Source of the DNA: Geosiphon pyriformis uo1
Lineage: Eukaryota > Fungi > Glomeromycota
DNA: 64,000 nucleotides
NCBI GenBank assembly: GCA_016748015.1
Contig: JAAOMT010000400.1
Span: 62,001-126,000, forward strand
Direction: 5' to 3'
Positions 21,501 to 60,300 of the stretch are shown piece by piece (positions within the stretch are counted from its first letter, which is position 1; every line of letters starts with the position of its first letter). The notes under the pieces were generated by a model. That model was not told where the DNA came from and made no database searches. It worked only from the letters and a program-made list of their open reading frames with translations. Both the position numbers and the translations under genes were made by a program.

Positions 21501-24332
21501 ATTGGTTGGTGTGTTATAGGCAGATAAGTGGGTTGGTATTGGTCTTAATTTGAGTGATGGTTTGGAGTCTGGAACTGGCGATTGGAGTTTCTATATTGAT
21601 TTCCCGATCATGAATTGCTATAAGTATGGCAGTTGGCTCTGATGTGCTCTTGTTTACCACAGTTGTGACAAATGCGCATCTTTGGCTGCCACAACTGATT
21701 GGATGATGATGATGGACGTAACTGATTTTGAAAACAATTCACATTTCCCTGATTGTTATGCCGTTGAGGAGGTTGATAAATCATGCAATTGTCAGCTAAG
21801 TATCCCTCTAATTTCTGATTAATTGAATCACTGAATTGCTTCAATTTGGAATCCAATTCAGATAATTCATTTATTGCTAGATTCAGCTTGGGTGTGATTA
21901 GCTTCTAGTTCAGCTGCTTCAAAATCCCTGGCATAAGTGACTGCAGTTAAAAGATTCACTAAGTGCATTGGACATACTTGTTGTAGGATGCTACTGTGCA
22001 ATCTTCTAATAAATTGATTTAAAATCTGTGGCACTATGAAATAGTCAGCTTGGATAACTTGTATTTGGTATAGATTTCTATGGAAGTGTTCTAAGTAGGT
22101 AGTAACTGCTTCAGTGTCCCCTTGTCTGATAGTGGTAAAGGTGTTGGCTAATTTGTTGATACTATTATTGTTGCTAAAGTACTGCAAGAATTCAGTTTTG
22201 AATCCATTAAAATTTTGGGGTTTGACAACAAGACTTTGATACCATGCATCAGCAGTATCCTAAAGAAAATAAGAGATCACTTGTATTACTCTAGCATCAT
22301 CCCAATTATTGGCTGTAATGGCTTTGGCCATGTTATTTAACCAGACTTGGGCATCATTTTCTTCACCATTGAATTTGTTGAGTTTCATGATGGGTGCATA
22401 AGCCATTTGTTGTTGCTGTGATAATAGAAGTTGTTGTTGTTGTTAGGGCAGTACTGGTGGCAGTTGTTGATTTTGTTGGTTTGGTGGTTGGATGGACTGG
22501 TCAATTGGTTCAACAGGTGATTAATCAATGATAATAACTAGAGGTAAGTGTTGATTAATTACTTTGGAGTTTGGATTGTTCTGATTTGGTGGGGTTTGAA
22601 TATTTGGAGTGTCATTTTCTGAATTGTCTAAATTGGACTGGGTTTGAAAGTTTGGGGTTTCAATTTCTGGGTTTTCTAGGATCAGGTTTTAGTAAGTAAA
22701 TTCTTGATTTTCAGATTCTTCTTTCTCTTCTACTTCTTGTTTTCCTTTTGATTCAGTAATTTTCCAAGGACTTGTGATTCCAAAATTCGGGTGAGGTGGT
22801 AGTAATCAAAATTCTGATGGCATTGGTAATCAAGATTTAAATCCTTTAAAATACTTGTCATATAGTTTTAGTAGATCCTCTTTTCTTTGTTTACTTTGGA
22901 ATGGGAATTGTCCAAATGCTGATGTCATGTTTGATGTGGCCATGCTGGTAGATGTAATATTAATGATGTTTCCAAGTGTATAGTGGTATAATGGATTAGT
23001 TGGAAACTCAACTCTTGTTTTCTTTCAAGTAGGTGGTTGTATTCTTTTGAGTGTTACTGCTGGTGTTTGCAGTTTTTCTTTGCCTTTGCTTGCATAAGTA
23101 ATGGGGTATCTTTGCTGTGTATGGTGTTCAATTTCTTTGTTGATTTCCGTGATGATGGAAGCAAAATTGTGATTTGTTGGCAGGTTGGTATTTTGAATTA
23201 ATTCACTGTAAAAGGCTTCTCTTGTCAATTCGATATTTACTGGTGTTTCTAATAGATGGGCAATTCTTTTGTTGACGTAGAAATTGAAAGCTAATTCTAC
23301 TGATATGTGGTTGTGATTTAATTCCAAATGTTGACAGTAGTATTGAAATAAGAATTTTGCGAATCCTAGATAGTTTGTTCCTATGTTTTCTGATTCTGCC
23401 ACTTTTAGATTTGTGTTGGTGCTGGTTCTCTGTAGGATTATACCTTACAGGGAGCATCAAATGTTACAGGTGACTATTTTTGGTGTTGGATTAAATAACA
23501 AACCTGTAACTTGGTGTTCAAATCTAGTTGCAGTTGATAGTGATCTGAAGATTTGTGTCTAAAAGGTTTGTATCTGAAGGGTTTGGTTGAGTTCTTTGTA
23601 TAATAGACAGAGATTTAATGGTAATAGTTTTATCCATAGCTTTCCGAAACCGCAGTTTTGTTAATTTTTTTCTCAGCTTGATGGCTGGTATTCCTCTTGG
23701 TAAGCTATCCTCAATTGAGTGTTCTACTCTTATTTCTGGGTCTTTTACCAGTCACGTTTATCCCGATGTCAGTACCCTGTGCATTAATCCTTAATAGAGT
23801 TAGTAAATAACAATAAAATCAAAGCAAGAAATAAAGAAAAAAAAAGAAAATAAAGAAAGAAAAAAAATAAGCCAAGGCAATTTGCAAGTTAGTATTCCGT
23901 CAATAGCCATAATCAAGAGCTATTGTTCCAGTGTGGTTAAGTATCAATTACTATCAACATGAAGTGTTGATAGTGGCAGCAGGTTTGAGATAACAAACAG
24001 TTATTTATTTGTGGTTTGGAAAGTTGTCTAGATGAAATCTAAATTGAAAGGTCTGTTTTTTTAGTTTCTAATCCTACTGCTATATATACATAATTGAAAT
24101 TCCTCAATTCCTCAATTTTTCACAACAGGAATCCTGGAATTCCTAAAATTCTGCAATTCTTTTGAGAGGAATCCTAGAATTCTGGAATCCTGTGATTTCT
24201 TGTGAGAATTCTATAATTTCTGGAATCCTGCAATTCCTAAAAGGAATTCTGAAATTCCACATTTTACTATATCTACTTCTGATTGGTTAATAACTATGCT
24301 AATATATATTTCCTATATTTCTATGAATAACA
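18505..24332 (-). mobile_element. Ty3/Gypsy element B, internally deleted (lacks dUTPase-RT-RH-IN), nested in gag of A
   Basis: LTRs 18505-19375 and 23462-24332; PBS 23442-23459; PPT ~19376-19390; TSD gtgg/gcag (ancestral GCGG); deletion junction ~19475. Confidence 0.93.
19476..23402 (-). pseudogene. gag-protease-ZnF remnant of B
   Basis: GTG start; capsid-like region; zinc knuckle CHNCGKQEHIRANC; protease FDSGSADS; CDHCLIPCDFQFCDDC. Confidence 0.9.
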
Positions 24333-25292
24333 GCAGTGATTGCTTTTTCGGCTTCTGCAATCCACAAATACATGTTATCTTCTTCCCCCAAGAATTTTTC
24401 TAACTTAGTGATATCTCAGTAAGCCATGATCCAGTTGATAGGTAAGATGTTACTGGTTATGTTTAAGAGGGTTGGTGTCTGTGTATTTGAGTGTTCTCCG
24501 AGTGCTAATACTGGTTGTTTCCCTTTGTTGCTTAAACCAATAGGTTGTAAGATAGCTGTTTTTTCCATTAGGGGAGATGCTGATTCTGCTAGGTTTTGTG
24601 TTAGTGGCTGTTCCCAAGTTGACATGTTTTCTTTTGTTTGACCAGCTGCTGAGATAAGATTTCCAAACAGCGATCCATATTCTCCTAGTGATTTGGTCCA
24701 ACTGTGTTGATTCCAAGAGTGTGAATTTCCAGAAGTTTGTAGTGTTTCCGACTGGGTTTCCAGGAGTGGATTAAATACAATTCTACTTTGGAGTGTCTGA
24801 TGGTATGATGGAGTTGTTGGGAAGAGGACTCTTGGTTTTTTGTTGACTGTGGATTTGTCTTGGGCAGTTGTGAGATTATTGGATCCATACTCGTATTCCT
24901 TCAAATCAGATTCTATTGGTTGTTGTACTTGAAAGAATCATTTTGTCACATAGTGTTTAATGTCTGTATTGACTATGCATAGGGTTTTAACAATAGCTCA
25001 AGTAGTGGTAGTTGTTGAGTACCTTAGTAAGCTTTGATAGATTTGTTTTTTAAGTTTTTCTATGTCTATTGTGTGGTCTAACAAGCAGTCAATTTTTGCA
25101 TTGATATAGTTGCAAAAATCACTTTCTGCAATGGTAGTTTTTGCTGGTATTCTTAGATCTTTTCAAAAGTATTGAAATAGTGCTTTTCTATATGAGAAGT
25201 GGTCTTTTTCTATTGTTCCAATAGTCACCACTTTTGTGTATCTCTGGAGTGCTCTGTCTCTGTGGATTTATAACCTCACAGGGAGCACCAAA

Positions 25293-26384
25293 TGTTATGG
25301 ATAAACTTGGTGGAGATGAGAAATTGTAATGTTTGGTGCTCTCAATTATTGATGATGCGTCTTCCGCATAATTCTGTTGGCTTAGTCTTGATTATTAGTC
25401 TCTAAAGGTCTATTTCTGGATGTGATTTTACCCATTGAGTTCTTTGGTTATAAGACACAGAGTTTGTCTTTCATCAATTACAACATTTTCAGTAAATATA
25501 AGCTTTTTTCTCCAAGTTAACAAGCACAGTCGTTAGGATCTGGTGTTGTCTTTTCACCCTTCTAATAAGCTAACAAGATAATGTTAATATCCAAAACTTA
25601 GAGGGAGTTTCTTTCTTTTACCAGACTATCATAAAGTCTATTCTCAGACAGTCAATTTTACTATGTTGCTGCTTTACAAAAAAATAAGAAAGAAAAAGAA
25701 AAGAAAAGAAAGAAAAGATAAATTAGTATCATCAATTGCCATGATCAAGAGCAATTGGTCCAAATTGTTAATAGTTCGAGGTGGTTATGCTAAGAGCATC
25801 TGTCCTAAAATGAAGGTATGAGGCAAGGGTTAATTCACATAAATTTCATGAAGTTTGAGAACATGAATTCATGATTCTGATTTTTTTAATAATTGGTTTA
25901 TTTCAGAAGATGAAATAGAGAAGATAATAAATAATAAAGGGGTATGGATATTTGATTCTTGTCTAGAAGTTTGTATCTATCTGTCTGTTTTTCTAACTTC
26001 TATAACTACTTGTTTTTATACATTCTTTTGGTTTTACAAGATTGCTTTCAATTGTCTTGCTATTATTAGCTATTGCTTTGTTATTTCTGTTATTGCTTTG
26101 TTTTTCTACATTATTGCTAGTTATCCTATATTATAACACATTATCTGATGTTATTACATGTTATTCTGTATTATCTTGTATTATAACACGTTATTCTATG
26201 TTATAATCCGTTTATCCAATGTTATTGCATGCTATTCTGTGTTATCCTGCATTATAACATGTTATCCTACATTATAACACATTATCCAATGTTATTGTGC
26301 ACTATTTTGTGTTATGTCATGTTTTGGTTACATTTTGGTTACGTTTTTTCATAACTTTGGATCAGTTTTTCTACTCGGATAACA
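25293..26384 (-). repeat. 5' LTR of A
   Basis: Adjacent to the PBS; matches 10303-11410. Confidence 0.95.
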
Positions 26385-34181: not shown

Positions 34182-34783
34182 GAGTTGGTAAGTTGTCTAA
34201 TACTGTTGGTTGTTATTATGTTTATGATTGGGTCCAACAATAGTTTGTGACAGTTTTCAAATGCTTTGAAAATTCTGTAAACTGTTTTTGAATGGAATGT
34301 AGTGTTGGTTTTTCCAATGAAAGATTTTAATAGTTGGATAGTTGTTTTGTCAAACACTCTAGTTGAGTCTTTTGAGTATAATGTTTGTATGTTCAAGTGC
34401 TTTCCTAGTTAATAATAACAGTAATTAATTGGAAATTTCATTTTCAAGTTGCTAAATGTGTCTGGTATTAATTCACTTATTTTTATTTCTTCTATTATTA
34501 ATGTATTGCCCAATGCTATCTCTAATTTTTCAATAACTTTGCTGATAAATTTGTTGTTATATTTGGTAATATTATATGGTTCAAAATTATGTTCTTTTCT
34601 TGTTTTTGGATTTTCTATTGTTTTTTTTATGTATGTTATTTTGGAGCTATTAACTGTGATTTCCAGATTGAATTTTAATTATTGTAAGCTTTCAACTAAT
34701 TGTTGAGTTATATTGTTGATGTTTTCTGGAATAAGTATCATTGTTTTAATTTTGACTGCTATTTTGGAATCTTTTGCATGCAT
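34182..34783 (-). pseudogene. ORF3 of D
   Basis: NLEITVNSSKITY..FPINYCYY*LGKHLNIQTLYSKDSTRVFDKTTIQLLKSFIGK. Confidence 0.8.
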
Positions 34784-34825
34784 TTTTATAGTTGTTAAAT
34801 CATTTTTGCTGTGATCTAAGATTAA

Positions 34826-39200: not shown

Positions 39201-42200
39201 AGTTTTTTCTTGCAAACTTAGCATTTTAGCTTTGGTCTGCGTCGCTGGTGGTTTCTTTGTGGACTTACCTGGTTCCATTTGGATCTTTCTTCGCTGGTCC
39301 ACGTTGGTATAGCTGGTAGTCCTGTTCTTTGGTCATCAGCCCAAAAGAGCTGATAGGTTTTAATGGCTGGTAGTGCTGGATTTTCTTCAAATTCAAAGGT
39401 AGGTCTTTGGTTGGTGCTGGGTTTTTGGAAGTGGTCACAGGTGGCTGGAATTCTGGCCTGGTGGCCATTATAATTGATCAGAAGCTCTTAGGTGGTCTAG
39501 TCTAGAGTGGTGTTGGCTTTTGTTAGCCAGTCATTCTCTACTAACGCTTAATATTGTGTAGTATTCATTACTAATACTTTTGTAGGTATTACTCTGCTGT
39601 TAATTTCAAAAGAGAATAAGTTGATTTCGCCATGAAGCAGCTTTGTACTTTCATCAGCTGTTATGATTTGGAACATCACAGCACAATCAACTTTAAAACC
39701 TAGTTGGTTTATTAGTTGAAGCATTACAATGCTTCTAGTGGATCTGCTGTCTAAGATAAGTTTGATTGGGATATTGTTTACAGTGGCTTCTGTATATATA
39801 GCAGTGATTGGACATTTTTTGTTCAATGCTGCTCCACTGAACATAGCCTTGTTTTTCTCTAATTCAAAAGGAAAAATAGCTGCGAGACTACTATCTTCGG
39901 TGGTAACTGCTGGTAGTATTGTCTGGCTCAATTTGTTGGAGAAATTTTTGGTTTTGTTTATGTTTCTACCATTATTGTTTCCGATGATTGGATTTTCCAG
40001 TATATTAAGATAAGTTTGTTGATAATTTTGGTAGTTTGGATTGGTTTGTTAATTGGTTCCAGCATGGTTTGAATTCCTTTAAACCAATGCGTTCTGGTTC
40101 CATATGAGCTGATTTTGGGCCTTGGAATGCCAATATGAGTTGGTTATCATGGGCTGTTGCTGGTAAGTTTCTTGATTTTGATATGTGGTGAGATATTGGT
40201 GTGGTATTAATATATACTGGTTTCTGGACATTTGGGATGGTGCATAGTAATTATTTTCACATGCTTCTTATATCATTCACATTTGACATTAACTAATCAA
40301 ATGTCTTACACATTTGCTAAAATAGCAGGTGCACATTTCTGTTCTGAATTTCTGACACAACGAGCAATTATTTTGACTGTTGCTAACTTCCTGGCTGCGT
40401 CTTTGAGGTGGTTGGTATGTATTTCTTCTCGGATCCAGGATTAGGTAACTTTCTATTTTCTTAGAGAGTTCCTCCCCTAATTGTGTTACTCTTTTCTCTA
40501 ATGTTTCTGTCTTATTTTCCTTCATTACCATGTTAACCATTTGACTATAGTTAGCTTCTTTCTCAGCTGATTCAAGGACTCTGGCGAGTGTAACGGCTTC
40601 TGGTAAGGAATTAGGGTGGGCAGTGCATACTTTTCCTAAAATACTGCTTTTTAATCCTCTAATAAACTGATTTAAAACCTGAGGATCAGTGTAGTATCCT
40701 TGTTCAATTGCTTCAATTTGACGGCAAATTCAATTGAATCAAGCAAGGTATTGGATAACAGTTTCAACAGTATTTTGCTTAATAGTATTGAATTTGTTCT
40801 GTAGTTGGATTATGGCATTTGGGTCGCTAAAATACTCCAGGAGTGCATTTTTAAATTTGGTGAAGCTTGTGAGTTTTGTTTCTAGGCTTTGATATCATGA
40901 GTTAGCTGTGCCTTTTAGGAAGAAAGGTAATGTTTGAATTGCTCTTTGGTCATTCTAGTTATTTGCCTGGATGGTTTTTTGTGCTTTTTTGAGCCACATG
41001 TGTACGTTCATTTTTTCTTCCTCTCCTGAGAAATCTGTTAGTCTTGCAATATATGGTGTGGCCATTTCGTTACCATTTTCTGCTGGTGGGCTTATTGGTC
41101 TAAGAGAAGGTGGGATGATATTTCCTTGAGCGTTCTTGAAGGTGGCTTCCTTTATATCTGGTTCTTCCTCTTGATCACAAGTTTCTTGGTTTTTGGACTG
41201 GCTGCTTGTTCTAGTGACCAGTCTTGTGATTGTTTTTTTGCTGGTCTCTTTTTCAGATTCCAATTCAGACTTCTCTTTACAGTTTTCAAACTTCGTTCCG
41301 AATTTTGGCTGAAAAAGAGGGTTTTAAAATAGTGATGAATATCCTTCTGTAATTGGTATGTCTCTCCAGTTACGTTGTTTAATTTTATCAGTATAACTAA
41401 GAGTTCTTAGTGTTTGTGGAGTTGATATTAATGATGATGCAGCTCCTAATAGAATTTGTATCTTATTTTCTGGTGAAAAATGGTATGATTTATCTTCTGG
41501 TGAATAAATATGTTGTTTTTTTATTGATTGAGTAATAGTTTTCTTTGGTTTTTGAGCAGGTGTTCCTAGTTTTTGCTGGTTACTTTCCTAATTAGTTTCT
41601 GAATTTTTTTTGGTTTTGTTGGCACGTTTCCTAGTGTTTTCTGTGGATATTAGAAAATTTTCGTTGGTGTATTGCTCAATTTCTCGATGGATTTTGACAA
41701 TAGTTGTGGTGTTATAGGTGATTATTTCTGCTGTTGATGTAAATAACAAACCTGTAACTTGGTGCTCAAAAGCTACTTTCGTTGATGCTGTTCTAAAGGT
41801 ATTGTATCTGAAAGTTTTGATGAAGTCCTTTGTATAATGAACAGAGATTCAATAGTGTCGATAGTAGATGTATCTTTCTAAAAGTTTTCCCAATTTCTTT
41901 CTCAGTGTGGTGGCTGGATTTAGTCTGGCAGTCATGCCCTTCTGGTAAACTATCCGATAATATATAAAATCCTACCCTTATTTCTGGGTCTTTTACCAGG
42001 CTATCCTTGACATTAATAACTCAGTGTTTAATCTTTTAATCAATTAATATACACAACAGTCAAATCAAATAAAATAAAGAAAAGAAATAAAAGAAAATAA
42101 AGAAAGAAAAGAAATAAGTCCGGGTGGTTTGGCAGATTAGTATTCTGTCAATAGCCATGATCAAGAGCTATTGTTCCAGTGTGGTTAAGTATCAATTACT

Positions 42201-42551
42201 ATCAACATGAAGTGTTGATAGTGGAGAGTGGATTGAAATATGTAATAATTATTTATTTGATGATTTTGTTTCTTGGCTAAGAATTCTGTGATATCGATTC
42301 TGTTTTTTCTGTTTCTAATACTACTGCTATATATACATAATTGGGATTCTTCAATTCTTCAATTCTTCACGACAGGAATCCTGGAATTTCTGGAATCCTG
42401 CGATTCCTTTGAAAGGAATCCTGGAATTCTGGAATCCTGTAATTTCTAAGAGGAATTCTGAAATTCCACATTTACTATGCTTACTTTTGATTGGCTAATA
42501 GTTATGCTAATATATTTCCTATATTTCTATGAGTAATATTATTCTCTCCTT

Positions 42552-43211
42552 TTAATATTGAGCTCTGTTGAAATCCAACTCATGTAATTCCCCCTCTTGC
42601 AGTATTTCCTGGATTTCGTTTTTGAGAATTACTTGTGTTATTTGGGTCTGTAATTCTTCAAATTAAGCATTGGTGATTTTTCCCCATTGATTACTGGTAA
42701 CCATATCCATTGCTTTGTTGAACAATATTTCTGGTTTATTCTAAAATGCTGTGTGTATTTGGTATATGGCTCAGGCTTGTGTGGATAAGTTGTTCTTTCC
42801 CACAAAATGTTCTAATTGTTGTAGTATTCTTTTGTCAAATAATCGCTTTGTTTTATCTGTATATAGATTCTGGATATTTACGTGTTGTCCCAAGTAAAAA
42901 TAACAATAGTTTTGTGGAAATTGTTGTATCCACCAATTCCAAGTTTCTTTAATCAACTCTTGATATAGTGACTCTTTTGTCAATTCTTTTATTGCTAATT
43001 TTACTTTTACCATGATTTTGTTCACCATATTTTCAGTTTTTTTTGGTGTTTTGAGTTGCAATGTCTTTTTAGTATCTTGATATTGAATAGTTTGTTGATT
43101 GATTGTAATCTCCATTTCCTGGTGTTGAATTAATTGAAAGAGTTGTTGTGCTAGTGTGTGAATGTTGTCTGTAATTTCCATTTTTCTGATATTTCTTGTC
43201 ACATCTACCAT
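42552..43211 (-). pseudogene. ORF3 of C (~220 codons, unknown function)
   Basis: MVDVTRN..FPQNYCYFYLGQHVNIQNLY..LQQLEHFVGK; reads through premature stops to LDFNRAQY* at the PPT. Confidence 0.82.
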
Positions 43212-43235
43212 GTCTTTATATATTCTTTTAATTGA

Positions 43236-44618
43236 TCAATTTAACGTGTTGTTGTTGATAATAATGATTGGTTCCAGATCTCGTAGAATCTCATCTGATC
43301 AGACTAGTATTCTCTGTACTCCTAATTGTAAAATATTATTGGTAAATGGTAGTGTGATGTCGCGATATGACTTCAGTCGATCTCTATGTGCTGCTTTGGT
43401 TAAAATTTTGTTATCCAATCTTAATTTGTAAGCTCCATTTCCTAGAATTTCTTCTATGTGAAATGGTCTGTTCCATTTGGGATCGAATTTTCCACTCCAT
43501 TGTTTTTCCGCTTTGGTATAATGTAGTAATACTTTGTCTCCAATCTTGAATTTAACTGGTTTGTCTGGTAGTTAACTATTGTGTCTTTTTTTCTGTTTTT
43601 TTTGTGACTTTTGAATATTATCAGCTGCTCTTCTTCGTTTGTTTTCCAATGTTTTCATTAAGTTATATGTTCTTCTCAGCAATGTTTCTTGAAAATTTTC
43701 TTCTGTTATTGGTTCAGCTGGATATGTATTAATTTCTCTCTCTACTGATAATATTGCTGTTCTCTTATATACTAATTCAAATAGTATTGCTTGTGTAGTA
43801 TCTTGTTTTATTGTTCAATAAGCAAATAGTACTGATGGTATAAACAAATCCCAATTGTTCTGGTTTTCTTGGCTGAGCTTAGCTATTACTTTACACAGTG
43901 TTCTATTGAATTTTTTTACTAGTCCGTTGGTTTGTGGATGGTATGGTGATGATAATGGTCTCTTGATTCTGAATCTTTAGCTCAATTCTGTTAATGTTCT
44001 GTTTACAAAATGAGTTCCTTGGTCTGATAATAATTCTTTTGGACATCCATGTCGACAAATCAAATCCTAATGAACAAATTTGACAACGGATTCTGCATTC
44101 GCTCTTTGAATTGTTTTTGCCTCTAGCCATTTAGTGAGATAATCCATAGCTACCGTTATGTATCTGTTTCCTCTGCTGGTGATTGTTAATGGTCCGACTC
44201 AATCAATTCCAATACGGTTAAATGGTTGTCCCACTTTGATTGGTCTTAATGGTTTACTGGGTCTTGTTTCTCCTCTTCACTGACAAGCATCACAATTTTA
44301 AACATATTGAATGATGTCTGGGTACATTGATGACCAATAGTATCTCTTTCTGGTTCTTTCCATGGTTGCTTCTTTGTGAAAATATCCTGCTGTTGGATTT
44401 GAGTGCATGTTGAATAATATTGTCTTTTTTTCTGGCTCCGTAATTACTCTAGTTGGTTGATCTGAATCTCTTCTATTTTTTCAATAAAGTATATTTTGGT
44501 GAGTAATAAAATATTTTGATTGTTGTTTGATACTCTTTTGTTCTGTTTAAGATAAATTCTCCTTGAACTGTTGAGTGTTTATATAATGCTGCAATTGTTG
44601 ATATTTTTGTATGTTCAT
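43236..44618 (-). pseudogene. Integrase of C (own ATG after the pol stop)
   Basis: MNIQKYQ..HSNPTAG..CDACQ; RIGID; LLSDQGTHF; PYHPQTNG; RDLEPIII. Confidence 0.92.
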
Positions 44619-44681
44619 TTTTTGTTGTATTTTTCTGTTGGTATTGTTCTGGTTTTGTTATGTTTTTGGGTTGAAATGTTC

Positions 44682-47600
44682 TTAGATTTGCCTCATTTAT
44701 GATAAACTGTCTGCATTTCCATTGTCTTTTCTTTTTTTATAATATATAGTATACTTATATGGTGTGAGTGCCATTTTCTATTTTGACTGTTTTCCATCTC
44801 CAAATTCTTGTTTTTGAAGTGATGTTAATCCTTTGTGATCTGTGTATACCTCAAACTTCTGGCTTAAATATTCTTTCCATTTCATGACTGACCAGTATAT
44901 TGCTAAGTGTTCTTTTTCCAGTGTTCCATAGTTCTTTTCAGCTGGTGTTAAACCTCTGCTGACATATGCCACTGGATGTTCTCTGCCATCTGGTCCTCTC
45001 TGAGATAGTACTGTTCCTAATGCCTGGCCAGATGCATCCATGGTGATGATAAATGGTTTGCTGTGATCTAGATAGATCAGTACTAGAGCTTGTATAAGTT
45101 TTCTTTTTAGAATATCAAAAGCTTCTTGTTAACTTTTAGTCCATTCATATTTTGTATCTTTGTTATGTAGTTGGTTGAGTGGCTGTGCTATCTTGGAAAA
45201 GTTCTTGATAAAACATTGATAGTAGCTGGTGAATCCCAAGAATAATTTCAGTTCTGTCATATTAGTCAGCACTGGAAAGTTCTTTACTATCTCTATTTTC
45301 TCCGGATCTGTTTTGATGCCATCTTTGCTGACTATGTGTTCCAAGAATTTTAGTTCTGTCTTGCCAAAGAAGCACTTTGTTGCATTTAACTTTAATCCTG
45401 CTCTTCTTAGTCTTTCGAACACTTGTTGAAAATGATGAAGATGATCATCAAATGTTTTTGAGAATACATTGGTGTTATCCAAGTATACAACTACTGATTT
45501 CCACAATAAGCCAGTATAAACAATTTTCATTAGCCATTGGAAAATTGCTGGGGCATTGGTTAAACCGAATAGCATCACTTTAAATTCGAAATTCTCTTCT
45601 CTAGTAGTAAATGCCGTCTTCTCTTTGTCAGCTAAATTCATGGCTACTTGTCAGTAACCACTGTTCAAATCTAATGTTGAGAACCATTTGTTCCCACCAA
45701 AAGCGTCGAATAATTCCTGTATTCGTGGAGTTGGGTAACTGTCTCCACGAGTTACATCATTGAGTTTTCTGTAGTCTACACAAAACTGGATTTTTCCATT
45801 CTTCTTATGGACAAGTACCACTGGTGATGACCATGGGCTCATTAATGATTGAATTAGCCCATTATTAAGCATTCTGTTTATCTCTTGACAAATGATCTTG
45901 TGGCTGGCTGGCAGCACTCTGTATGCTCTTTGTTTAATTGGCATTGCATCTCCAGTCTTGATCTGATGCTGGATAATGTCAGTTCGGCCAAACTCATTTT
46001 CACTGGCAAAGATGTCATTGAAATTGTTGAGTAACATCTTGAGCTGCATACATTGGAGTGGATCTAAGTTTCCCATGTTCATTTGTTCCAATTGTTCTGG
46101 TTGAAGCAAATAACATTTGTCTCGTCCATAGATTGTTTGTGATGTGATGTCAACATATCCACAAAGTTGTGGAAAGTTTGGAATGGGGTTTGGTGGTTGG
46201 TCTTCTATTTCTGTGGTTAAATATCTGATGGTGGTTCCTTCTGGTATGTTGATGACATTGCCAGTGTTGTTGTAAATGGGAATTTTTATGCTGCTATAGC
46301 TTTTGGCTGGTATGTAGAGATTGATCAACCCAATCTCTCCTGATTCATAAAGGTTTGCTTCAGCTTCAAAAATTTGTCCTTGCTCCTTTTCTTTCCTTCC
46401 TATTGCTAACATGTACTGGCTATATGGTGGAATGAAAATAGCTTGACTGGTTAAGATAATTTCTCCTTGGCCAACAATTTCTTCCTCTGCCATATTAACT
46501 GATATCTCTATTCTACTTGTTGATTCAAATCCTTGTATTCCTCTTGCTGTTATTTCTAATTCCTTCCTTTTTCCCACTAACACTAACTAAGCTACTCTAA
46601 CCAGAGGCAGAAATATTGCCTGTGCTATCTTTTTGTTGGGCTCTATTATATAGGCCTTTTCTGAGTCATTTTGTAGTATGGTGATGATATTTTCTACATA
46701 TCCCGCATCAATTATTCCTCCTCTTATATTGATCCCTCTTTTCACTAAACTACTTCTAAATGCTAATTGAACCATTGTTGTTGCCGGAATTTCTAGTGCT
46801 ATTTTCAGATCAATGCAGGTGCATGAATGCAGTTCCAATTTGATGGCATCTTTTTCTGGATATCTCAGATCAAACCCTACATCCATATTATGCATGCGTT
46901 CTGGCATAATACCTTCTCCATTGTCACTATATCATTTTAACTCTTGTTTCTTGGAGAGATTTGGTAATGCAATGTATTGTTCATAGTTTAAATCAGAGTT
47001 TGACTCTGAGTTGGAATTAGTATCATTGTTGTCACCATATTGAACAGAGCTGGAACCAGTGTTTTTGTTATTGTTGTTGTCGGAGTTTGAATCAGGATTG
47101 AAAATCAATTCCGATTCTGATGCACATCTGCTGATTGGTTCTTCCTCTTCAGAGATTGTATAAATCATGCGTGGTGGTGGATTGTAAATGAGGTTACATT
47201 CATCACAATACTGGAAATCACAGAGAATTAGGCAGTGTTGACATAGTCGAGCATTCAACTGCTCTAACTATTGTTCTTGTTCTTCCCTTGTGGGTGCTAA
47301 TTCTTGGTAGTGTTCATAGAATTGTTTCAGATCTAGGAGATTTATGATGAGTTCTGTGTCCCAGTCAAGCTCTACAGATTTTGGTGAATTGTCTTTGATT
47401 GTTTTTATTTTCTCAGACGACGCCTTTTCAATTTTGGCAAGTGCCATTTGCCAAATTTCATTGTCATCATGGGACAACTGTCCAGTTGCTGTACAGCTTT
47501 TCTTTAGGCTGCTTCTATTGGAGTTCCTTTCCTTACCCAGTCGCTTATTAGAATTGTGTATTGACACGATATGTCACACGTTCCTCCACATCCCTTCATT

Positions 47601-50600
47601 CAGGAGAGTTTTTCCACAGGCTATACATAACGTATTATCTTATTTTCCTATTTGTTTTGGTCTTCCAAAACGTTTGATATGGCATGTGTGGTAATAGAAC
47701 TTGGTTGCCGTCTGATATTCTTTGTTGTCCCCACAGCATGTGTTCATTGATGACAATTTCTTGCCACAATCAATGCATATCAGTTTGGGTCGGCAAGAGA
47801 TCAATGGTTGTTGTTGACCGTAGGTGTATGGGATATAAGTGTTGTTGACTTGAGTGTTTTCTTCCTTCCTCTCTTTTCCTTTTCCCTTTTCTTCTTTGTT
47901 TTTTTCTCATTCCCAGCTTGAAGTCAGTTCACTTTCGTCATTGTCAGTCCAGATCAAGTCATTGGTTTCCCAGGTAAGTTCTTCTTTTTGTTTTCCTTTT
48001 TCATTGTCGTTGTCATCCCAGGGGAGTATTGGTGGCAGTTCGTTGTGCCCTTTATCAGCCCACAACACTTGGTAGGCTTCCCAAGTAGGTTTCTTTTTCT
48101 TCTCCTCCAGTTTGATCAATAGTTTCTTTCTTGGAGGAGTCTTGAAGTGGCCACATGTGGCCGGTACACGTATGTATTGGCCCTGATATGTTAGCTGAAG
48201 TTCCTGGATGTTCCAGTTTAACGTCATGTTGACTTTAGATAGCCAGTTATTACCAACAAGAGCTTGGTATTGAGTGACTTCTATTACTAGAACTTTAATG
48301 GGAGTTACGATGCCATGGACTTCAAAAGAGAAGTCGTCAATTTTGCCGATTGGAGTTTTGATTGCTCCATCAGCTGTGATGATTCTGGTGCTGGCAGCTC
48401 AATCAACTCGGTGACCTAATTGTTCCATGAGTTGCTGTGTGATAATACTGTCTGCTGAACTGCTGTTAAGGATCAATTTGATGGATTGTCTCTCGACTTT
48501 GGCGTCAGTGTACATTACGGTGATTGGTTTGGCTTCAAGAGTGGCTCCACTAAATAATGGCATTGTAGCTGTTTCCTCAAGTTTGAATGGGAAGATAGCA
48601 GCCAAGAACTTGTCTTCGGTAATGGTAGCAAGTGGGATATTACTAGTGAGTGGTTGTTTTTGGGTGAATGCCAGGTTATTGGTTGAGGCATCTTCTGGGG
48701 TAACCAGGAGACTTAAATAGTTCTGGGAATTTGGGTTTTGGGTTTGACTGGTACCCAAATTCTGCTGGTGTAATCCAGATGATTGCTGTAAAGAACTGAG
48801 AATTGGTTGATGGACTACCATTGCCGATCTCCAGCTCTGTTGAGTTATTTTTGGTCTTTGGGTTCTGTTGGGTGGTAAGCTTTGGGGCGGTGTTTGGATT
48901 TGTTGGAGTTGATAGATTATTTGTGGCTGCAGTTGTTGATAAATCACTTGTGGCTGTGGTTGATAGATTGGAGCTTGGTACACCGGAGACTGATAGATGG
49001 ATGACTGCATTACTGGTAGGTAAGCGGATTGGTTTTGATTTGGGTATTGATTCGGAGTTTGGAACTGGTAATTGGGGTTTTGATATTGATTTCCTGATCA
49101 TTGGTTATTTAAATACTGGTGACAGTCAATTTGGATGTGTCCTTGTTTACCACAATAGTGGCAGATATGTGTTTCTTGTTGCCACTATTGATTGGTCACT
49201 GAAAATAGACGTGGCTAATTTTGGGCACGATTAGAGTTTCCTTGATTATTGCATCATTGTGAAGGCTGATAAATGGTGTGATTGTCAGCTAAATATTCTT
49301 CCAATCTCTTATTAATTGATGCATTAAACTTCTCCAATTTGAAATCCAATTCAGATGATCCGTTCATTACTAGATTAACAGCTTGGGTGTGGTTAGCCTC
49401 TGGCTCAGTAGATTCAAAATTTTTGGCATGTGTAATTGTGTCTTGAAGAGTACCTGGATGCAATAGACGTACATGTTGCAAAATGCTGCTGCACAGGCCA
49501 CAGATAAACTGATTGAGTATCTGTGGTGCTGTGAAATAGTTGGTGTCAATTGCTTGAATTTGGCATAGGTTTCGATAGAAGCGTCCCAGGTAAGTGGTGA
49601 CTGCTTCAGTTTCTCCTTGTTTTATGGTGGTGAATGTATTGACTAGGCAATTGATACTGTTATTGTTGCTGAAGTATCTTAGGAATTCCACTTTGAAGGC
49701 ATTAAAATCTTGTGGTTTATTAATCAAGCTCTGATACCATAAATTGGCAGTATCCTTGAGAAAGTAGGGAATGGCTTGCATTGCTCGAGCATTATTCCAT
49801 CCGTTGGCTGCAATGGCCTTTTTTATATCATTCAGCCATACTTGAGTGTCATCCTCTTCACCAATAAAGTTGTCAAGTTTTGCGATTGGTGCATAGGCCA
49901 TTGGATCTAAGTTAGGTGGTTGGAGTGATAGTTAAAGTGGCTGCTGTATGGGTTCGGCTATGGGATTAATCAGCAGTTGATCGATGATGATTACTGGAGG
50001 TAAGTTTTGCTGATTAATTAATTTGGGGTTTGGATTGTTCTGCCTTTAATGATTTGGAGTTTCGATTTCTGAATTTTCTAGATCTGGATTTTGCTGAGTT
50101 TGAAAATTTGGGATTTCAACTTTCAGGTTTTCAGTGATCAGGTGCTGGTAAGTGAATTCTTGATCCTCTGATTCTTCTTCCTCTTTTTCTGATTCTGCTG
50201 CTTCCCATGGATCAAAGATTCTGAAATTTGGTGAAGGTGGTAGTGATTGAAGTCCTGATGGGGTTGATGATTGCGAATTAAATCCTTCAAAGTATTCGTC
50301 ATATGGTCCTAACAATTCTGTTTTTCTTTGTCTACTTTGGAATGAGAATTGTCCAAATGCTGATGTCATGGTTGATGGGAATATGTCTGTTGATGATATG
50401 TTGATGGCACTTCCAAATGTATAGTGATAGGATGGGTTGCTTGGAGATTCGACTCTGTTTTTCTTCCAAGCAGGTGGCTGTATTTTTCTGGGTGTTACTG
50501 CTGGTGTTTGTAATTTTCCCTTGTCTTTACTAGTGTATGTAATTGGATATCTTTGTTGAGTGTAATGTTCAATTTTTTTGTTGATCTTAGTGATAATGGA

Positions 50601-50843
50601 TGTGAAATTATGATTTGTTGGTAGGTTGGTGTTTTGAATTAATTCCTTATAAAAAGTTTCTCTTGCTGATTCAGTATTCACTGGTGTTCCTAATAAAAAG
50701 AAAATCTTTTCATTGACGTAGAAATTGAAGGCTGATTCGGCAGATATATGATTGTGGTTTAATCCCAAGTATTGACAATAATGTTGAAATAAGGATTTTG
50801 CGAATCCTAAATGGTTTGCTCCTATATTTTCTGATTCTGCCAC
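44682..50843 (-). pseudogene. gag-PR-ZnF-dUTPase-RT-RNaseH of C, one frame (~2050 codons) with point-mutation stops
   Basis: Listed ORF fragments from 50843 to 45041 are all in one frame; CHYCGKQGHIQIDC; dUTPase GFDL, RSS, GGIIDAGY, IAQ, RGIQGFES; RT and RH motifs. Confidence 0.94.
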
Positions 50844-50885
50844 TTTTAGTTTGGTGTTGTCAGTGCTGGTTCTCTGTAGGATTAT

Positions 50886-50903
50886 ACCTCACAGGGAGCA
50901 CCA
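50886..50903 (-). promoter_or_regulatory. Primer-binding site TGGTGCTCCCTGTGAGGT (shared by A, B and C)
   Basis: Starts 2 nt after the 5' LTR; complementary to a tRNA end CCUCACAGGGAGCA-CCA, resembling elongator tRNA-Met or tRNA-Ile(UAU) ends. Identity not certain. Confidence 0.85.
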
Positions 50904-53854
50904 AATGTTACAGGTGATTATTTCTGCTGTTGATGTAAATAACAAACCCATAACTTGGTGCTCAAAAGCTACTTTCATTGATGCTGTTCTGAAGATGTTG
51001 TATTTGAAGGTTTTGATGGAGTCCTTTGTATAATAGACAGAGATTCAATAGTGTTGATAGTAAATGTATCTTTCCAAAAGTTTTCCCAATTTCTTTCTCA
51101 GTGTGGTGGCTGGATTTAGTCTGGCAGTCATGCCCTTCTGGTAAGCTATCCAATAATATATAAAATCCTACCCTTATTTCTGGGTCTTTTACCAGGCTAT
51201 CCTTGACGTTAATAACTCAGTGTTTAATTTTTTAATCAATTAGTATACACAACAGTCAAATCAAATAAAATAAAGAAAAGAAATAAAAGAAAATAAAGAA
51301 AGAAAAGAAATAAGTCCGGGTGGTTTGGCAGATTAGTATTCTGTCAATAGCTGTGATCAAGAGCTATTGTTCTAGTGTGGTTAAGTATCAATTACTATCA
51401 ACATGAAGTGTTGATAGTGGAGAGTGGATTGAGATATGTAATAATTATTTATTTGATGATTTTGTTTCTTGGCTAAGAATTCTGTGGTATCGATTCTGTC
51501 TTTTCTGTTTCTAACACTACTGCTATATATACATAATTGGAATTTCTCAATTTCTCGATTCTTCACAACAGGAATCCTGGAATTTCTGGAATTCTGCAAT
51601 TCCTTTAAGAGGAATTCTGGAATTCTGGAATCCTGCAATTCCTGAGAAGAATTCTGGAATTCCACATTTACTACACTTATTTCTGATTGGCTAATAGTTA
51701 TGCTAATATATTTCTTATATTTTTATGAGTAACAGCGACTATTACTGCTATTTCTTTTGTAGTGTATTGTGATAATTCTCTATACAATCCAAGTTTTGCG
51801 TCGTGTGGTTTTTCTTCCTTTTCTATATGATAATTTATTCTGGCATTAATATAATAAGTGAGAGCAGATTTTGCTAGACAACACTTTTCTGGTAATCCAA
51901 GATCACTTTGATTTTGTGTGTAAATAGCATAGCAGAATTCAAGAACAGTAAGGTTAGGGGGTTTTGTTACCACTTTTGTCTCTTCCTTTTTAACAATGAA
52001 TTATTGCTAATTATTATTTCCTTTTTGATTTTTTTTTCTCGTAGGGTTTACCAAATGTTACAGGATGGTCTTCTTGTTATATTTAATTGCTGATATCCCA
52101 TTTTACTTGCAATCAGTCTTTCGTGAGTTCCTTAATTCTATTTGTGTGATAATGTCACTGTTATACTAAAGGCTTTCTTTTTAATGTCAAATGTAAGTTA
52201 TTCCTCAATTCCTGATTGTTGTGTGTATTTATGTACTCTTTCTCAGAGGCTGAACTGAAATTTACCCACTGTTTGGAGTCTTCTCTGAGGCTATCCTTGC
52301 AATTGCCTGATGTGTTTTTTTAATCTAGAAACACAGAATGTTAATGGTCTTTAGTGCTTTTCTTAATTCTTACAATAAAGCTTTTATCAATTAGTAACAA
52401 CGTGAATAATCTTGATCAAGGATTATTCTTCCAAGGGATTCAGCTGATGAATGATAGTTTCATTCAATAAATAATACAAGTAAGTTTCTTAATACTTTGG
52501 GTTGTGATAATTTAGTTTTAAATATTCTTTTTCATTTCTTTTTGATTTAAAGGTTTCTTGGGATATTTAATTTGAAAGTATGATTTAAAGTGGAGTTTGT
52601 TGGATAAAATTGGATCTATTGCTTAATAAATTATGATTTTTATTACTTGATTGTCTTTTCTCAATATTAAAGCTACTGTATATATACATGTTTGTAGTTC
52701 TACAAGAAAACACATTGTAATACTTTTTTTTTGATATTTTAACCTGGTGTTTGCTGCTATCATCAGTTGGTGTTGGCTGCTATTGTGAACTGGTGCTTGT
52801 CACTATTGTGAAATTATGTTTGCTACTATGTTAATCATTACCTTTCTAAGATTATTACTGTGCTATATTATGATTGAATAGTTTGTATTATTTTTATGAT
52901 TCTTTTGCTAAATTCTTAAACTGTAACAGTGTTTAGGAATTAACATAGGGCTTTGCTATATACTTTATCTGTTGGCACTATTGTTCATGATTTGTCTGGT
53001 TTGCTTGAATCATATGATGGGAAAACTTGTTTTATTGGTTGCAATCCTAATTCTTATGTCCATGACAGATGTGCTGTAGTTTGTTTTGTTGATGAAGCAT
53101 CCAAGTTGGCTGTAATTGATTCTGTTCTAGTTTTCAAGGGTGTGAGCTTGCAGTGAACTGGTCTTTCTTTGGCTTGTTGTGCCAAATATGAACAATTTGG
53201 TCATGTTTCTAATGTGTATTCAATTGGTGGGAATTCTGGTGTTCATAATAAGCGGATGGTAACTCCTCAAGATTGAGTTTGATTGGCAAACATATATAAA
53301 AAGAAGTGAGTTCCAATCGTTTGCCCAGTTTCTTTTGGTGGGAAAACTTGGGCCCAAGTGGCTAAAAGTCTTTCTTCTTAAGTGGTTTCATCGGATTCTT
53401 CTGGTGTTAATATGTCTCCAGGTGCAAAACCTGTCCCATTAGTTTCAAATTCTCTTGGTGATTACTGTTTGGTTGAGCAATTGGCTTTTTTGGAATGCTC
53501 TTTGGAGCTTTTAACAGATCAGGTTTCGAATGTTTTAAAAAAATTGAGTTTCGTGGAATTGGTGCCTCTGGTGTCTGGTCTCCATGCATCTCTTATGGTT
53601 GTTGCCACTCTTGTTGCCACTAATGTAGACTTAGATATGGCTATAAATAATACAGCTGTGTTGTCTCCTCCCCCTTTGTTAGTTGTTGTTGACTTGGTTA
53701 CTGATCTTAGTTTGAGTAATTCTAAGGTTTTGACCACCAAAGTGGGTGAATTGGAATCCAAGATGGTGGCTTTGGAGCTGTCAGTTGAATCTGTTTTGGA
53801 AAAATTGAATTGTTTGTGCTCTGATCTGGGATCGTCAACTTCTCTTCTTCCCCA

Positions 53855-57312: not shown

Positions 57313-60300
57313 TATTACAGATGATTATTTGGGGTCTCAAGTCAAATAACAAATCCGTAACTTGGTGCTGGATTGGTACTTTGGTGTTGATATCTGAAGG
57401 TTTTGTTGTGGAGTCTTTTGTATAATAGACAGAAATTCAAGTATTGTCTTTCCTGTAGCCTTCTGGAATTGCAATTCTGTCAAATTTTTTTCTCAGCATG
57501 GTGGCTGGTAATCTTGGCAGAGATGCCCTTCTAATAAGCTATCCTTAAATTCTCAATTCCTATACTCTTCCTTTGGGGTCTTTTACCAGGCTATCCTTGA
57601 CATCAATAATTCAGCACTTAATTTTTAATCAGTTTAGTAAAACCAACAAAATGACAAAACAAAGAAAATAAAAAAAAGAAATAAGAAAATAAATGAAAGC
57701 AATTGTAAGTTAGTATCCCATCAATAGCCATGATCAAGAGCTATTGTTCTCATGTGGTTAAGTATCACTTACTATTAACATGAAGTGTTGATAGTGGAAA
57801 GTAGATTAAGATGGTGAATAATTATTTATTAATATTTGTGAATGAAAGGTTGCTTAAATCAAATCTAAACTGAGAGGTCCCCTTTTCTACTTCTAATGCT
57901 ACCACTATATATACATAATTTGGGTTCTATGAAATTGCTCACATTCCAAGCAATGTGCTATAATTTCTCAAGCAATGATCACATTGCTAAGCAATGTGCT
58001 GTATTTTCTTGACATTGCTCCACATTGCTAAGCGATATGCTGTGATTTCTAATATTGCTCCACATTGCTGAGCAATGTGCTCACGTGCTAACTACTATTC
58101 TCCTATTGGTCTCCTATTTTCTTATATCTGTTTTCTTTTTCTATGAGTAACATTATCTCCTCTTTTTTAATATTGAGCTTTGTCAAAATCTTTGTTTTGA
58201 ATTAATTCTAATACTTTTTTTTCAAGTATTGTTTGTTTAACTCTGTTTCTTATGTCTTTTACTTGTGTATTGTTCATTCTTCCCCATTGGTTAATGGTTA
58301 TGGTTTCCATGTCAGAGTGTAATAGTATTTCTGGATAGTTTCGAAATATGTTGTGTAGTCAGTACATTGTTCTAACATGTAGTGTTGAATTCATTTTCTT
58401 TCCGATAAATTCTTTAATTTGTTGTATTATGTCTCTTTGTTCTTTTTGAGATAATTTCTTCTTGAACAATTGAGTCTTTATATAATGTTGTAGTTGTTGA
58501 TATTTTTGTATATTCATCTTTTGTTATATTTTTGGGTTAGAATGTTTTTAGATTTGTCTCATTCATGACAATTCATCAGTATTTCTATTATCTTTTCCCT
58601 TTTTATAATGTACTGTATAGTTAAATGGTGAAAGTTCTATTTTCCATCTGACATGGCAATTGTTTGCAAATTTTTGTTTCTGAATTATAGTCAGTCTCTT
58701 GTAATCTGTGTATATTTTAAACTTTTGGCTCAAGTATTCTCTCTATTTTATGACTGCCCAATAGATTGCTAAATGTTCCAGTGCTGGAGTTCTATAGTTC
58801 TTTTCAGCTGGACTTAAGCTTCTACTGGCATAAACTACTAGATGTTCTCTTCCATTTGGTCTTTTCTGCGATAATACTGCTTCTAATCTTTGACCTGATG
58901 CATCCGTAGTGATGATAAATGGTTTGCTGTGGTCTGAATACATCAACACTGGAGCTTAAATAAGCTTTCTTCTTAATGTGTTGAATGCTTTTTGTTGAGC
59001 TTCAGTCTATTCATACTTTATATTCTTAGTTTGTAGCTGGTGAAGTGGCTGTGCTAGTTTGGAAAAGTCCTTGATAAAATGGCAATAATAGCCTGCAAAT
59101 CCCAAAAATGTCCTTAGTTCTGGCAAGTTTGTTGGTACTGGAAAGTTTTTTACTATTGCGATCTTATCTGGATCCATTTTGATACCATCTTTGTTTACAA
59201 CATGTCTCAAAAACTTGAGTTCAGTTTTTTCAAAGAAACACTTCATTGTATTTAGTTTCAATTCGGCTTTTCTTAGTCTTTCAAACACCTGCTGAAGGTG
59301 ATGCAGATGATCATCAAATGTTTTTGAGAATACATTGGTGTTATCTAAGTATACAATTACTGATTTCTATAGTAGTTCAGTATATATGATTTCCATGAGC
59401 CATTGAAATGTTGCTGGAGCATTTATCAAGCCAAATGGCATGAACTTCAAATTCAAAATTCTCTTTTCTTGTTGTAAATACAGTCTTTTTTTTGTTGGCT
59501 GAATTCATGGCTACTTGCCAATAGCCACTATCTAGATCCAGTGTCGAGAACCATTTGTTTCCTCCAAAAGCATTGAATAGTTCTTAGATCTTTAAAGTTG
59601 GGTAGCTGTCTCTCTTGGTTACTCCATTCAATTTCTGGTAATCTACACAAAAGTGAATTTTTCCATTCTTCTTCCAGACTAGTATCACTGGTGATGACCA
59701 TGGACTTATTGATGGCTGAATTAGCCCATTGTCAAGCATCCAATTGATTTCTTAATGAAAAATCTCATGGCTAGCTGGTGGTACTTTGTATGCTTTTTGT
59801 TTAATTGGCATTGCATCTCCAGTTTTGATTTGATGCTGGATAATGTTGGTGTGGCCAAATTTATTTTCACTAGCAAAGATGTCATTAAAGTTGCTGAGTA
59901 ACATCTTTAGTTGCATCTGTTGGAATGGGTCTAAATTTCCCATATTTATCTGTTCCAATTGTTCTGGTTGGAGCAAATAGCATTCACTTTGTCCATAGAT
60001 GATTTGTGATGTGATGTCCACATATCCACACAGTTGTGGAAAATCTGGAATGTGGTTTGGTGGTTAATCCTCAACTTCAGTGGTTAAATATCCAATAATG
60101 ATTCTCTTTGGTATTTCAATAACATTTTCAGTTGTGTTGTGGATAGAAATTTTAATATTTTTGGAACTATTGGTTGAGATGTAAAGATTAGTGAGTCCAA
60201 TCTCTCCTGATTCACAAATGGTGGCTTCTGTTTTAAACAATTGAACTTGATCCTTCACTTTTCTTTTTATGGCTAACATATACTGGTTATATGATGGAAT

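What the first reader, a model, noticed from the sequence alone, without database searches (positions are those of the whole stretch)
50895..50963. U5 carries an anti-PBS (tRNA 3'-end mimic) that can fold over the LTR end and the PBS
Seen: plus-strand gagcaccaa-at-gttacagg is inverted by cc(t/c)(g/a)taac-ttggtgctc about 40-55 nt inside the LTR in B, C and E, with an inner ttattt/aaataa stem. In A, gtaacatttggtgctc (10336-10351) complements the PBS/LTR junction at 15 of 16 positions. The RNA therefore contains GAGCACCA, the tRNA acceptor end, placed to pair with its own PBS. D uses a different PBS and keeps only a short stem at the LTR end. Inference: a switch controlling tRNA annealing, protection from 3' tRNA fragments, or a step toward Tf1-like self-priming.
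Basis: partly seen in the sequence, partly recalled or inferred. Interest (0 to 1): 0.72.

Follow-up and report, generated by a model that had tools for sequence, protein, structure and literature searches.

The report
Two-sided RNA clamp over primer site
In decayed gypsy-type retrotransposons of a symbiotic fungus, the tRNA primer-binding site is flanked on both sides by partial copies of the tRNA end that are predicted to fold over it, which likely keeps the primer off until the element's own chaperone loads it, as in some retroviruses, rather than replacing the tRNA.

Summary
Nested minus-strand Ty3/gypsy elements (relatives all Geosiphon pyriformis) carry a U5 arm complementary to PBS nt 1-8 plus the LTR end in 7 of 7 LTR copies of families A, B, C, E. 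A shares only about 52% Gag identity with the others and uses another spacing. The 17-nt PBS equals a real tRNA-Met 3' end (viral stand-in; host tRNA not seen). Tf1-like self-priming is unlikely: the only shared TATA-like box lies 600-730 nt upstream. Protection from tRNA fragments is weak: annealing stays favourable. No compensatory covariation was found, and D, with another PBS, has no anti-PBS, so tracking is presence/absence only (n=1). No RNA data. Best reading: a retrovirus-like PBS gate (HTLV-1 hairpin, RSV/Tf1 U5-IR) in a two-sided form. The scan noted a related PBS-side mimic in another genome (e1-7508199).

The parts
50955..50963 (-). U5 anti-PBS of element C (9 nt, reads like the tRNA acceptor end)
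50946..50954 (-). 5' arm of the U5 inverted-repeat stem, contiguous with the anti-PBS
50917..50943 (-). inner AU-rich stem and 13-nt loop; loop diverges between B, C, E (4-9 of 13 identical) while arms do not
50907..50915 (-). 3' arm of the U5-IR stem = end of the 5' LTR
50905..50906 (-). unpaired AU bulge containing the terminal A of the LTR
50887..50903 (-). 17-nt PBS, identical complement of a tRNA-Met(CAT) 3' end found in viral contigs; contains a TGA in the gag frame
50874..50880 (-). downstream complement of PBS nt 10-17 (local hairpin)
50860..50867 (-). downstream anti-PBS for PBS nt 1-6 and the spacer (alternative partner; decayed in this copy)
50906..51734 (-). 5' LTR of element C (829 bp, 94% identical to its 3' LTR); TATA-like box 629 nt upstream of its end
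41710..42538 (-). 3' LTR of C; anti-PBS at 41759-41767
42539..50886 (-). internal region of C: pre-gag/gag with CCHC knuckle, protease, dUTPase, RT, RNase H, integrase, extra ORF; broken by stops
23443..23519 (-). element B 5' junction: PBS (two decay changes) and U5 arm
18505..18562 (-). B 3' LTR end with intact U5 arm
25274..25341 (-). element A 5' junction: same 17-nt PBS, 10-nt anti-PBS at -49 and a second 6-nt one at -20
10303..10351 (-). A 3' LTR end with anti-PBS
57313..57369 (-). E 3' LTR end with 8-nt anti-PBS; its PBS lies outside the window
52038..52115 (-). element D 5' junction: different PBS-like site, short U5-IR stem, no anti-PBS on either side

Best explanation
These gypsy elements carry a full tRNA primer-binding site that is predicted to be clamped by their own RNA from both sides, and the clamp likely works as a gate that blocks tRNA loading until the Gag nucleocapsid chaperone opens it. 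Shown: the complementary arms, their conservation across lineages, the tRNA-type PBS, a CCHC knuckle in Gag of A, B, C, E. Predicted: fold U (U5 arm on PBS nt 1-8, leader hairpin on nt 10-17) and fold L (leader covers the whole PBS, U5 arm freed). Inferred: both folds hide the four bases that match the only single-stranded part of a folded tRNA (the ACCA end), so spontaneous annealing is slow; once tRNA is placed, the 9-bp U5-IR stem stays just ahead of the primer, as described for RSV and Tf1, and shapes initiation.
For: Arm in 7 of 7 LTR copies of the four families with or probably with this PBS. A is 51-53% identical in Gag to B, C, E, with unrelated loop and other spacing, yet keeps arm and PBS. 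Among B, C, E the anti-PBS and its neighbouring arm are 8-9 of 9 identical against 4-9 of 13 in the loop and 6-11 of 22 upstream (ungapped). The motif shows in 48 of 337 fetched gene models, in three frames and about ten upstream contexts (the pattern selects for it, no denominator). PBS plus 31 nt of leader folds better than shuffles in A 37, B 9, C 71 of 2000, not in D 1624. Folds U and L: A -24.9/-21.7, B -36.0/-35.1, C -35.6/-29.7 kcal/mol. In 850-950-nt contexts natural copies keep PBS nt 1-8 paired at 0.82-0.98 in A, B, C against 0.41-0.46 in D, C choosing U, B choosing L, A mixed. Opening PBS nt 1-4 costs 6-11 kcal/mol in A5 and C5, 2 in D5. Precedent: HTLV-1 PBS in a 10-bp hairpin needing chaperones (PMC13366004, passages); Ty3 5' PBS tends to pair inside the RNA (PMC11381356, passages).
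Against: No RNA, probing or activity data; all copies are dead and transition-decayed. No covariation: 1 of 25 pairs changes on both sides, matched by 164 of 500 shuffles, and it is of the decay type. D is a sister family of similar age (LTRs 95% identical) that spread without either arm. Several energies rest on merged copy pairs; natural B5 opens nt 1-4 for only about 2.5 kcal/mol. The leader hairpin on nt 10-17 falls to 0.22-0.51 in C's long context. The host tRNA was not seen.
Confidence: 0.55

Rival explanations
1. Only the U5-IR stem at the LTR end is functional (RT initiation or integrase-end context); the PBS-covering extension is a by-product of how the inverted repeat arose, for example a captured copy of the tRNA-cDNA junction.
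For: D keeps a 7-bp LTR-end stem without the extension. The arm reads like the primer end plus first cDNA bases. U5-IR is a known requirement in RSV and Tf1 (cited in PMC5445492 and PMC3601003, passages; primary papers not held).
Against: In A the PBS-covering part (10 bp) is the stronger part and the LTR-end part only 4 bp. The extension is as conserved as the stem, and a second anti-PBS exists downstream.
Confidence: 0.17
2. The clamp acts later, as a strand-exchange device: the cDNA copy of the U5 arm captures the tRNA 3' end while the leader takes back the PBS (fold L), releasing primer and strong-stop DNA for strand transfer; or the same hairpins in plus and minus DNA time the second transfer.
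For: Geometry fits: the cDNA copy of the arm is complementary to the primer end and fold L is within 1-3 kcal/mol of fold U in A and B. It would explain why there are two arms rather than one.
Against: No hybrid energies were computed; an 8-9-bp RNA/DNA hybrid must beat a 17-bp RNA duplex of about -36 kcal/mol. No precedent found in ten literature searches.
Confidence: 0.12
3. The folds shield the PBS from host 3' tRNA fragments or Argonaute.
For: Both halves of the PBS are predicted paired; net binding of an 18-mer drops from about -36 to -14 kcal/mol.
Against: The fragment still binds better than whole tRNA (-14 against -8). The half that a fragment's 5' seed would read (nt 10-17) is the weakly held one. 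No small-RNA data for this fungus were found.
Confidence: 0.08
4. Tf1-like self-priming: a transcript starts at the arm, RNase H cuts opposite the bulge, and the 9-mer primes; tRNA priming is a parallel or relic route.
For: Same topology as Tf1/Tj1 (LTR sequence complementary to the PBS; PMC4600332, PMC7175516, passages). A bulge or mismatch sits at the LTR/PBS junction in all four families.
Against: Shared TATA-like box 604-731 nt upstream and no conserved element just upstream of the arm. A cut this far from the 5' end would stop strong-stop DNA before R (inference). PBS is a 17-nt tRNA end. No chromodomain found.
Confidence: 0.05
5. The arm is kept by protein-coding constraint or by chance, not by pairing.
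For: In B, C, E one frame runs open through the hairpin up to the PBS.
Against: A TGA lies inside the PBS and 0 of 337 gene models read through it; the frame differs in A and D; coding does not produce complementarity; shuffles rarely match it.
Confidence: 0.03

Closest known systems
HTLV-1 PBS hairpin (PMC13366004, passages read)
   Same: An 18-nt-type tRNA PBS buried in a stem of about 10 bp that must be opened by chaperones before priming.
   Different: Here a fungal Ty3/gypsy element, two alternative partners on opposite sides of the PBS, and the upstream partner is continuous with a stem over the LTR end. Nothing probed.
U5-IR stem-loop of Rous sarcoma virus and Tf1 (seen only as passages and reference titles in PMC5445492, PMC3601003, PMC4600332; primary papers not held)
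   Same: A short inverted repeat in U5 pairing the LTR end directly ahead of the primer site; present in all five families.
   Different: In A, B, C, E its 5' arm runs on for 8-10 nt into the PBS, past a bulge at the terminal LTR A.
Tf1/Tj1 self-priming (PMC7175516, PMC4600332, passages)
   Same: LTR sequence complementary to the PBS.
   Different: There the complement is the first 11 nt of the RNA and replaces tRNA; here it lies about 550 nt below the predicted start and the PBS is a full tRNA end.
Ty3 5' PBS intramolecular pairing (PMC11381356, passages)
   Same: A gypsy PBS that is unreactive and pairs within the RNA, with partners that change with context.
   Different: Ty3's PBS is 8 nt and bipartite, its partners lie downstream only; no conserved local clamp was described in the passages read.
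Conserved Hairpin Site of fungal GalEa copia elements (PMC5445492, passages)
   Same: Conserved hairpin at the LTR/PBS junction in fungal elements, with a bulge at the junction.
   Different: GalEa has no PBS and a palindromic 9-mer; these are gypsy elements with a tRNA PBS.
dUTPase-bearing fungal gypsy elements, e.g. PosPlaTy3-5 and Tuber Tmt1 (PMC2864245, passages)
   Same: dUTPase between protease and RT.
   Different: No chromodomain found here; extra ORF after integrase.

Membership tests
Ty3/gypsy LTR retrotransposon | gag-PR-RT-RH-IN order between direct LTRs ending TG...CA, PPT before 3' LTR | tested here: met
   Pfam hits and order; LTR pairs 86-95% identical; purine tract next to 3' LTRs
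tRNA-primed LTR element | PBS 2 nt after the LTR, complementary to a tRNA 3' end with CCA | tested here: met
   17 of 17 nt identical to tRNA-Met of L044; 19 of 34 tRNA genes in 37 viral loci have the exact end (18 Met, 1 Leu)
tRNA-primed LTR element | the matching tRNA exists in the host | not testable with these tools
   no genome held; no tRNA in window
Tf1/sushi self-priming group | PBS complement is the 5' end of the transcript | tested here: inconclusive
   no RNA run listed; shared TATA-like box 604-731 nt upstream argues against
Tf1/sushi self-priming group | PBS not complementary to a tRNA | tested here: not met
Tf1/sushi self-priming group | chromodomain after integrase (recalled; CHD listed for Tj1-type elements in PMC4600332 abbreviations only) | tested here: not met
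   SH3_Tf2-1 below cut-off in A and C, no chromo hit in ten segments; frames are broken
U5-IR stem-loop (RSV, Tf1) | short stem pairing U5 with the LTR end just ahead of the PBS | tested here: met
   predicted 9 bp in B, C, E, 7 bp in D, 4 bp in A
U5-IR stem-loop (RSV, Tf1) | required for initiation of reverse transcription | not testable with these tools
   needs mutagenesis
PBS-occluding hairpin (HTLV-1 type) | PBS paired in a stem of about 10 bp in free RNA | tested here: inconclusive
   predicted 8-10 bp; no probing; no covariation
PBS-occluding hairpin (HTLV-1 type) | chaperone needed for tRNA placement | not testable with these tools
   CCHC knuckle present in A, B, C, E, none matched in D; activity untested
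GalEa Conserved Hairpin Site | copia element without PBS, palindromic 9-mer | tested here: not met
   gypsy order and tRNA PBS

The most novel reading that the evidence does not exclude
The two anti-PBS arms form a primer hand-off switch: the element's RNA mimics its primer tRNA end on both sides of the PBS, gating tRNA loading first, and then letting the nascent cDNA take the tRNA end while the leader reclaims the PBS, so that strong-stop DNA is released for strand transfer.
Probability: 0.12. Interest if true: 0.7.

Novelty: new variant of a known kind. Interest (0 to 1): 0.42.

Why it matters
Control of primer placement by RNA structure is well studied in retroviruses but barely in LTR retrotransposons outside yeast. 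A compact, two-sided clamp kept across lineages at about 50% Gag identity, in the LTR-richest genome of the Glomeromycotina survey read (41.2% LTR in G. pyriformis, PMC11952901, passages), gives a 130-nt testable module. It also shows that LTR sequence complementary to the PBS is not by itself a sign of self-priming, and offers a plausible structural halfway point between tRNA priming and Tf1-type priming. All copies here are dead and no function is shown, which caps the interest.

Tried and rejected
No host genome held, so no genome-wide family survey or host tRNA match. No RNA holder listed. A 16-nt junction pattern gave 42 viral loci, one with a 28-nt local match and none otherwise similar to the window: chance. 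Gag profile in viral contigs: 365 pattern hits, none confirmed. The hairpin pattern in metagenomes gave 2 near-identical loci with no similarity to the window or its proteins: unrelated. A tRNA for D's site: 1 viral and 1 bacterial hit, neither a tRNA. RT relatives elsewhere were at most 56% identical and mostly on short contigs. ESM Atlas gave only generic gag clusters. The apparent G-C to A-U double change in E3 was rejected as decay: the E-type loose end keeps the G. A gag frame reading through U5 and PBS was rejected. Contig layouts come from one sample that may be the source of the window and are not independent; only 40 of 85 differences were shown. Two primary papers were not held. Ten literature searches found no description of this structure in these elements; subscription papers and supplements were not seen.

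Full report
Setting. The window is a nest of minus-strand LTR elements. Element C (41710-51734) encodes gag (Retrotrans_gag, Ty3_capsid), protease, dUTPase, RT, RNase H and integrase in gypsy order, all broken by stops. All 120 listed gag relatives but the window's own are named Geosiphon pyriformis proteins, and a protein identical over the first 110 residues of the pre-gag frame is named for that species. LTR pairs: A 25293-26384 / 10303-11410 (86%), B 23462-24332 / 18505-19375 (92%), C 50906-51734 / 41710-42538 (94%), D from 52056 and 33236 (95%, one end in an N gap), E 3' LTR only from 57313. Differences between LTR copies are almost all transitions (A 130 of 134, B 70 of 70, C 51 of 51) and CpG is depleted to 0.22 of expected, so copies are dead and decayed, and single-copy folds must be read with care.

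The observation. In element sense, U5 nt -58 to -50 of C are the exact complement of the last spacer base and PBS nt 1-8; the next 9 nt pair with the LTR end; the terminal A of the LTR and one U are bulged; an inner AU-rich stem closes a 13-nt loop. The arm is at -58 in B and C, -57 in E (8 nt) and -49 in A (10 nt), in 7 of 7 LTR copies, one with a mismatch. Chance is about 1.3e-4 per LTR end. Shuffling U5 reached the observed PBS pairing in 0, 0, 1, 29 of 300 for A, B, C, E and 147 of 300 for D (merged copy pairs; E joined to the C-type PBS). Natural-copy z-scores are weaker, from -2.9 to +0.3 for C and -1.2 to -1.9 for A.

Conservation. A is as far from B, C, E (Gag 51-53%) as D is (45-50%); an RT-RH tree joins C with E firmly and A with D weakly (87/84). 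A shares the 17-nt PBS and the arm but not the loop or spacing. Among B, C, E the arms are 7-10 of 8-10 identical, the loop 4-9 of 13, the upstream 22 nt 6-11 (ungapped, so indels lower the last figure, alignment). Among 337 fetched gene models the arm's translation appears 49 times in 48 proteins, in three frames and about ten upstream contexts by eye; three read on into the same PBS; a few matches may be chance and there is no denominator. In all four families the terminal LTR A is unpaired: a bulge in B, C, E, and in A a mismatch once the CA/TG difference between its two copies is read as decayed CG (inference). There is no covariation: 18 of 25 pairs never vary and one double change is matched by 164 of 500 shuffles.

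The PBS. The 17 nt are the exact complement of the 3' end of a tRNA-Met(CAT) gene in viral locus L044; 34 of 37 viral loci found by a tRNA-shaped pattern are tRNA genes, and 19 have the exact end (18 Met, 1 Leu). This shows the site has a true tRNA end; the host primer is not identified. D's site starts with TGG but matched no tRNA; 378 contigs laid on D show only three variable places, one restoring CG in the U5-IR arm; D's LTR has no complement of 6 nt or more to its own site. So the arm is lost where the PBS differs, in one family, and not rebuilt.

The leader downstream of the PBS is itself an imperfect copy of the tRNA end. In C, 50874-50880 pairs with PBS nt 10-17 and 50860-50867 with the PBS 5' half. 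PBS plus 31 nt of leader folds better than shuffles in 37 (A), 9 (B, PBS merged), 71 (C) of 2000, against 1624 for D. Contigs laid on C show T at 50861 in 71% and G at 50862 in 66% of depth, which lengthens this match in the family majority (one sample, possibly the source). Two folds result: U (U5 arm on nt 1-8, local hairpin on nt 10-17) and L (leader covers the PBS, U5-IR stem left): -24.9/-21.7 in A, -36.0/-35.1 in B, -35.6/-29.7 in C (-32.6 with B/C merged leader); D has neither. In 850-950-nt contexts natural C5 takes U, B5 takes L, A5 mixes, with PBS nt 1-8 paired 0.82-0.98 against 0.41-0.46 in D; the hairpin on nt 10-17 is weak in C (0.22-0.51). A also has a second 6-nt anti-PBS at -20.

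Mechanism. Opening the whole PBS costs 16-20 kcal/mol in A5 and C5 against a 17-bp duplex of -36; opening nt 1-4 costs 6-11. With the viral tRNA as stand-in, net annealing is about -8 for whole tRNA and -14 for an 18-nt fragment (the tRNA's predicted fold is not the cloverleaf, so the first figure is rough). The clamp is thus a kinetic barrier, aimed at the bases that meet the free ACCA end of folded tRNA (established tRNA structure; inference), and not a lock against fragments. Gag of A, B, C, E has a CCHC knuckle, the usual chaperone. After loading, the 9-bp U5-IR stem remains. I put 0.55 on this gate model. Self-priming needs the arm at the RNA 5' end (PMC7175516, PMC4600332, passages); a TATA-like box is shared by all five families at -604 to -731 (missed by the pattern in A3 only), followed in A, B, C, E by a pyrimidine tract at about -370 to -440, which places the arm some 550 nt inside the transcript. 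No RNA run was listed, so this is inference.

Known systems. HTLV-1 buries its PBS in a 10-bp hairpin and needs Gag plus host factors (PMC13366004, passages); Ty3's 5' PBS pairs inside the RNA (PMC11381356, passages); RSV and Tf1 need a U5-IR stem (passages and reference titles in PMC5445492, PMC3601003, PMC4600332, PMC3592414; primary papers not held); GalEa's hairpin replaces the PBS (PMC5445492, passages); dUTPase between PR and RT is known in fungal gypsy elements (PMC2864245, passages). I also read the outline and section 15 of PMC11181671 and passages of PMC11952901. Ten searches found no account of a two-sided PBS clamp in a retrotransposon; subscription literature and supplements were not seen. 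An unchecked note of this scan describes a related PBS-side tRNA mimic in another genome (e1-7508199).

Verdict. Real, conserved, and more elaborate than reported; works like a retroviral PBS-occluding hairpin joined to a U5-IR stem; not a member of the Tf1 self-priming group by the features tested. New variant of a known kind, interest 0.42.

Noticed in passing
window 50049-50891 (minus): The pre-gag/gag frame begins right behind a TGA inside the PBS and has no ATG for over 150 codons; database gene models skip the LTR end and PBS with varied predicted introns, and 0 of 337 read through it. How Gag is initiated is unexplained; splicing that removes the PBS is one option.
   Followed up: partly
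LTRs of A, B, C, E, about -290 to -330 and -240 from the LTR end (C: about 51145-51200): A conserved TGGTAAA motif with an inverted TTACCA partner about 50 nt on; it resembles the start of D's PBS-like site, and D's LTR lacks it.
   Followed up: no
all five LTR families, -367 to -475 from the LTR end: A conserved palindromic TGATCA core, followed in A, B, C, E by a branch-point-like motif and a long pyrimidine tract: candidate dimerisation site, intron end or terminator.
   Followed up: no
window 52038-52053 (minus): D's TGG-starting site matches no tRNA found and its junction is laid about 20-fold less deeply than its U5, unlike C; D's primer is unknown.
   Followed up: partly
flanks of A (10299-10302 / 26385-26388), B and C: Flanks fit 4-bp target duplications with a central CG decayed differently on each side, hinting at a CG-centred target preference.
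   Followed up: partly
window 42774-43235, 34181-34825, 11626-12087 (minus): An extra conserved ORF follows integrase in C and D (32% identical) and similar frames lie there in A; no convincing Pfam hit.
   Followed up: partly
window 18505-24332: B is a 5.8-kb element with gag and protease but no dUTPase, RT or integrase match: a deleted or non-autonomous form that keeps both arms.
   Followed up: no
window 5168-7795 and 53867-56496: A second, plus-strand repeat (66-68% identical) with a weak zf-RVT hit, probably a non-LTR element; one copy interrupts the D LTR region.
   Followed up: no
window 27636-27893 and 29306-29563: 258-nt inverted arms, 71% complementary, 1.4 kb apart.
   Followed up: no
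L081 and L082, about 2999-3597 in element orientation: An unrelated 600-bp element with 32-bp terminal inverted repeats beside a small predicted secreted-type ORF in two metagenome contigs.
   Followed up: no
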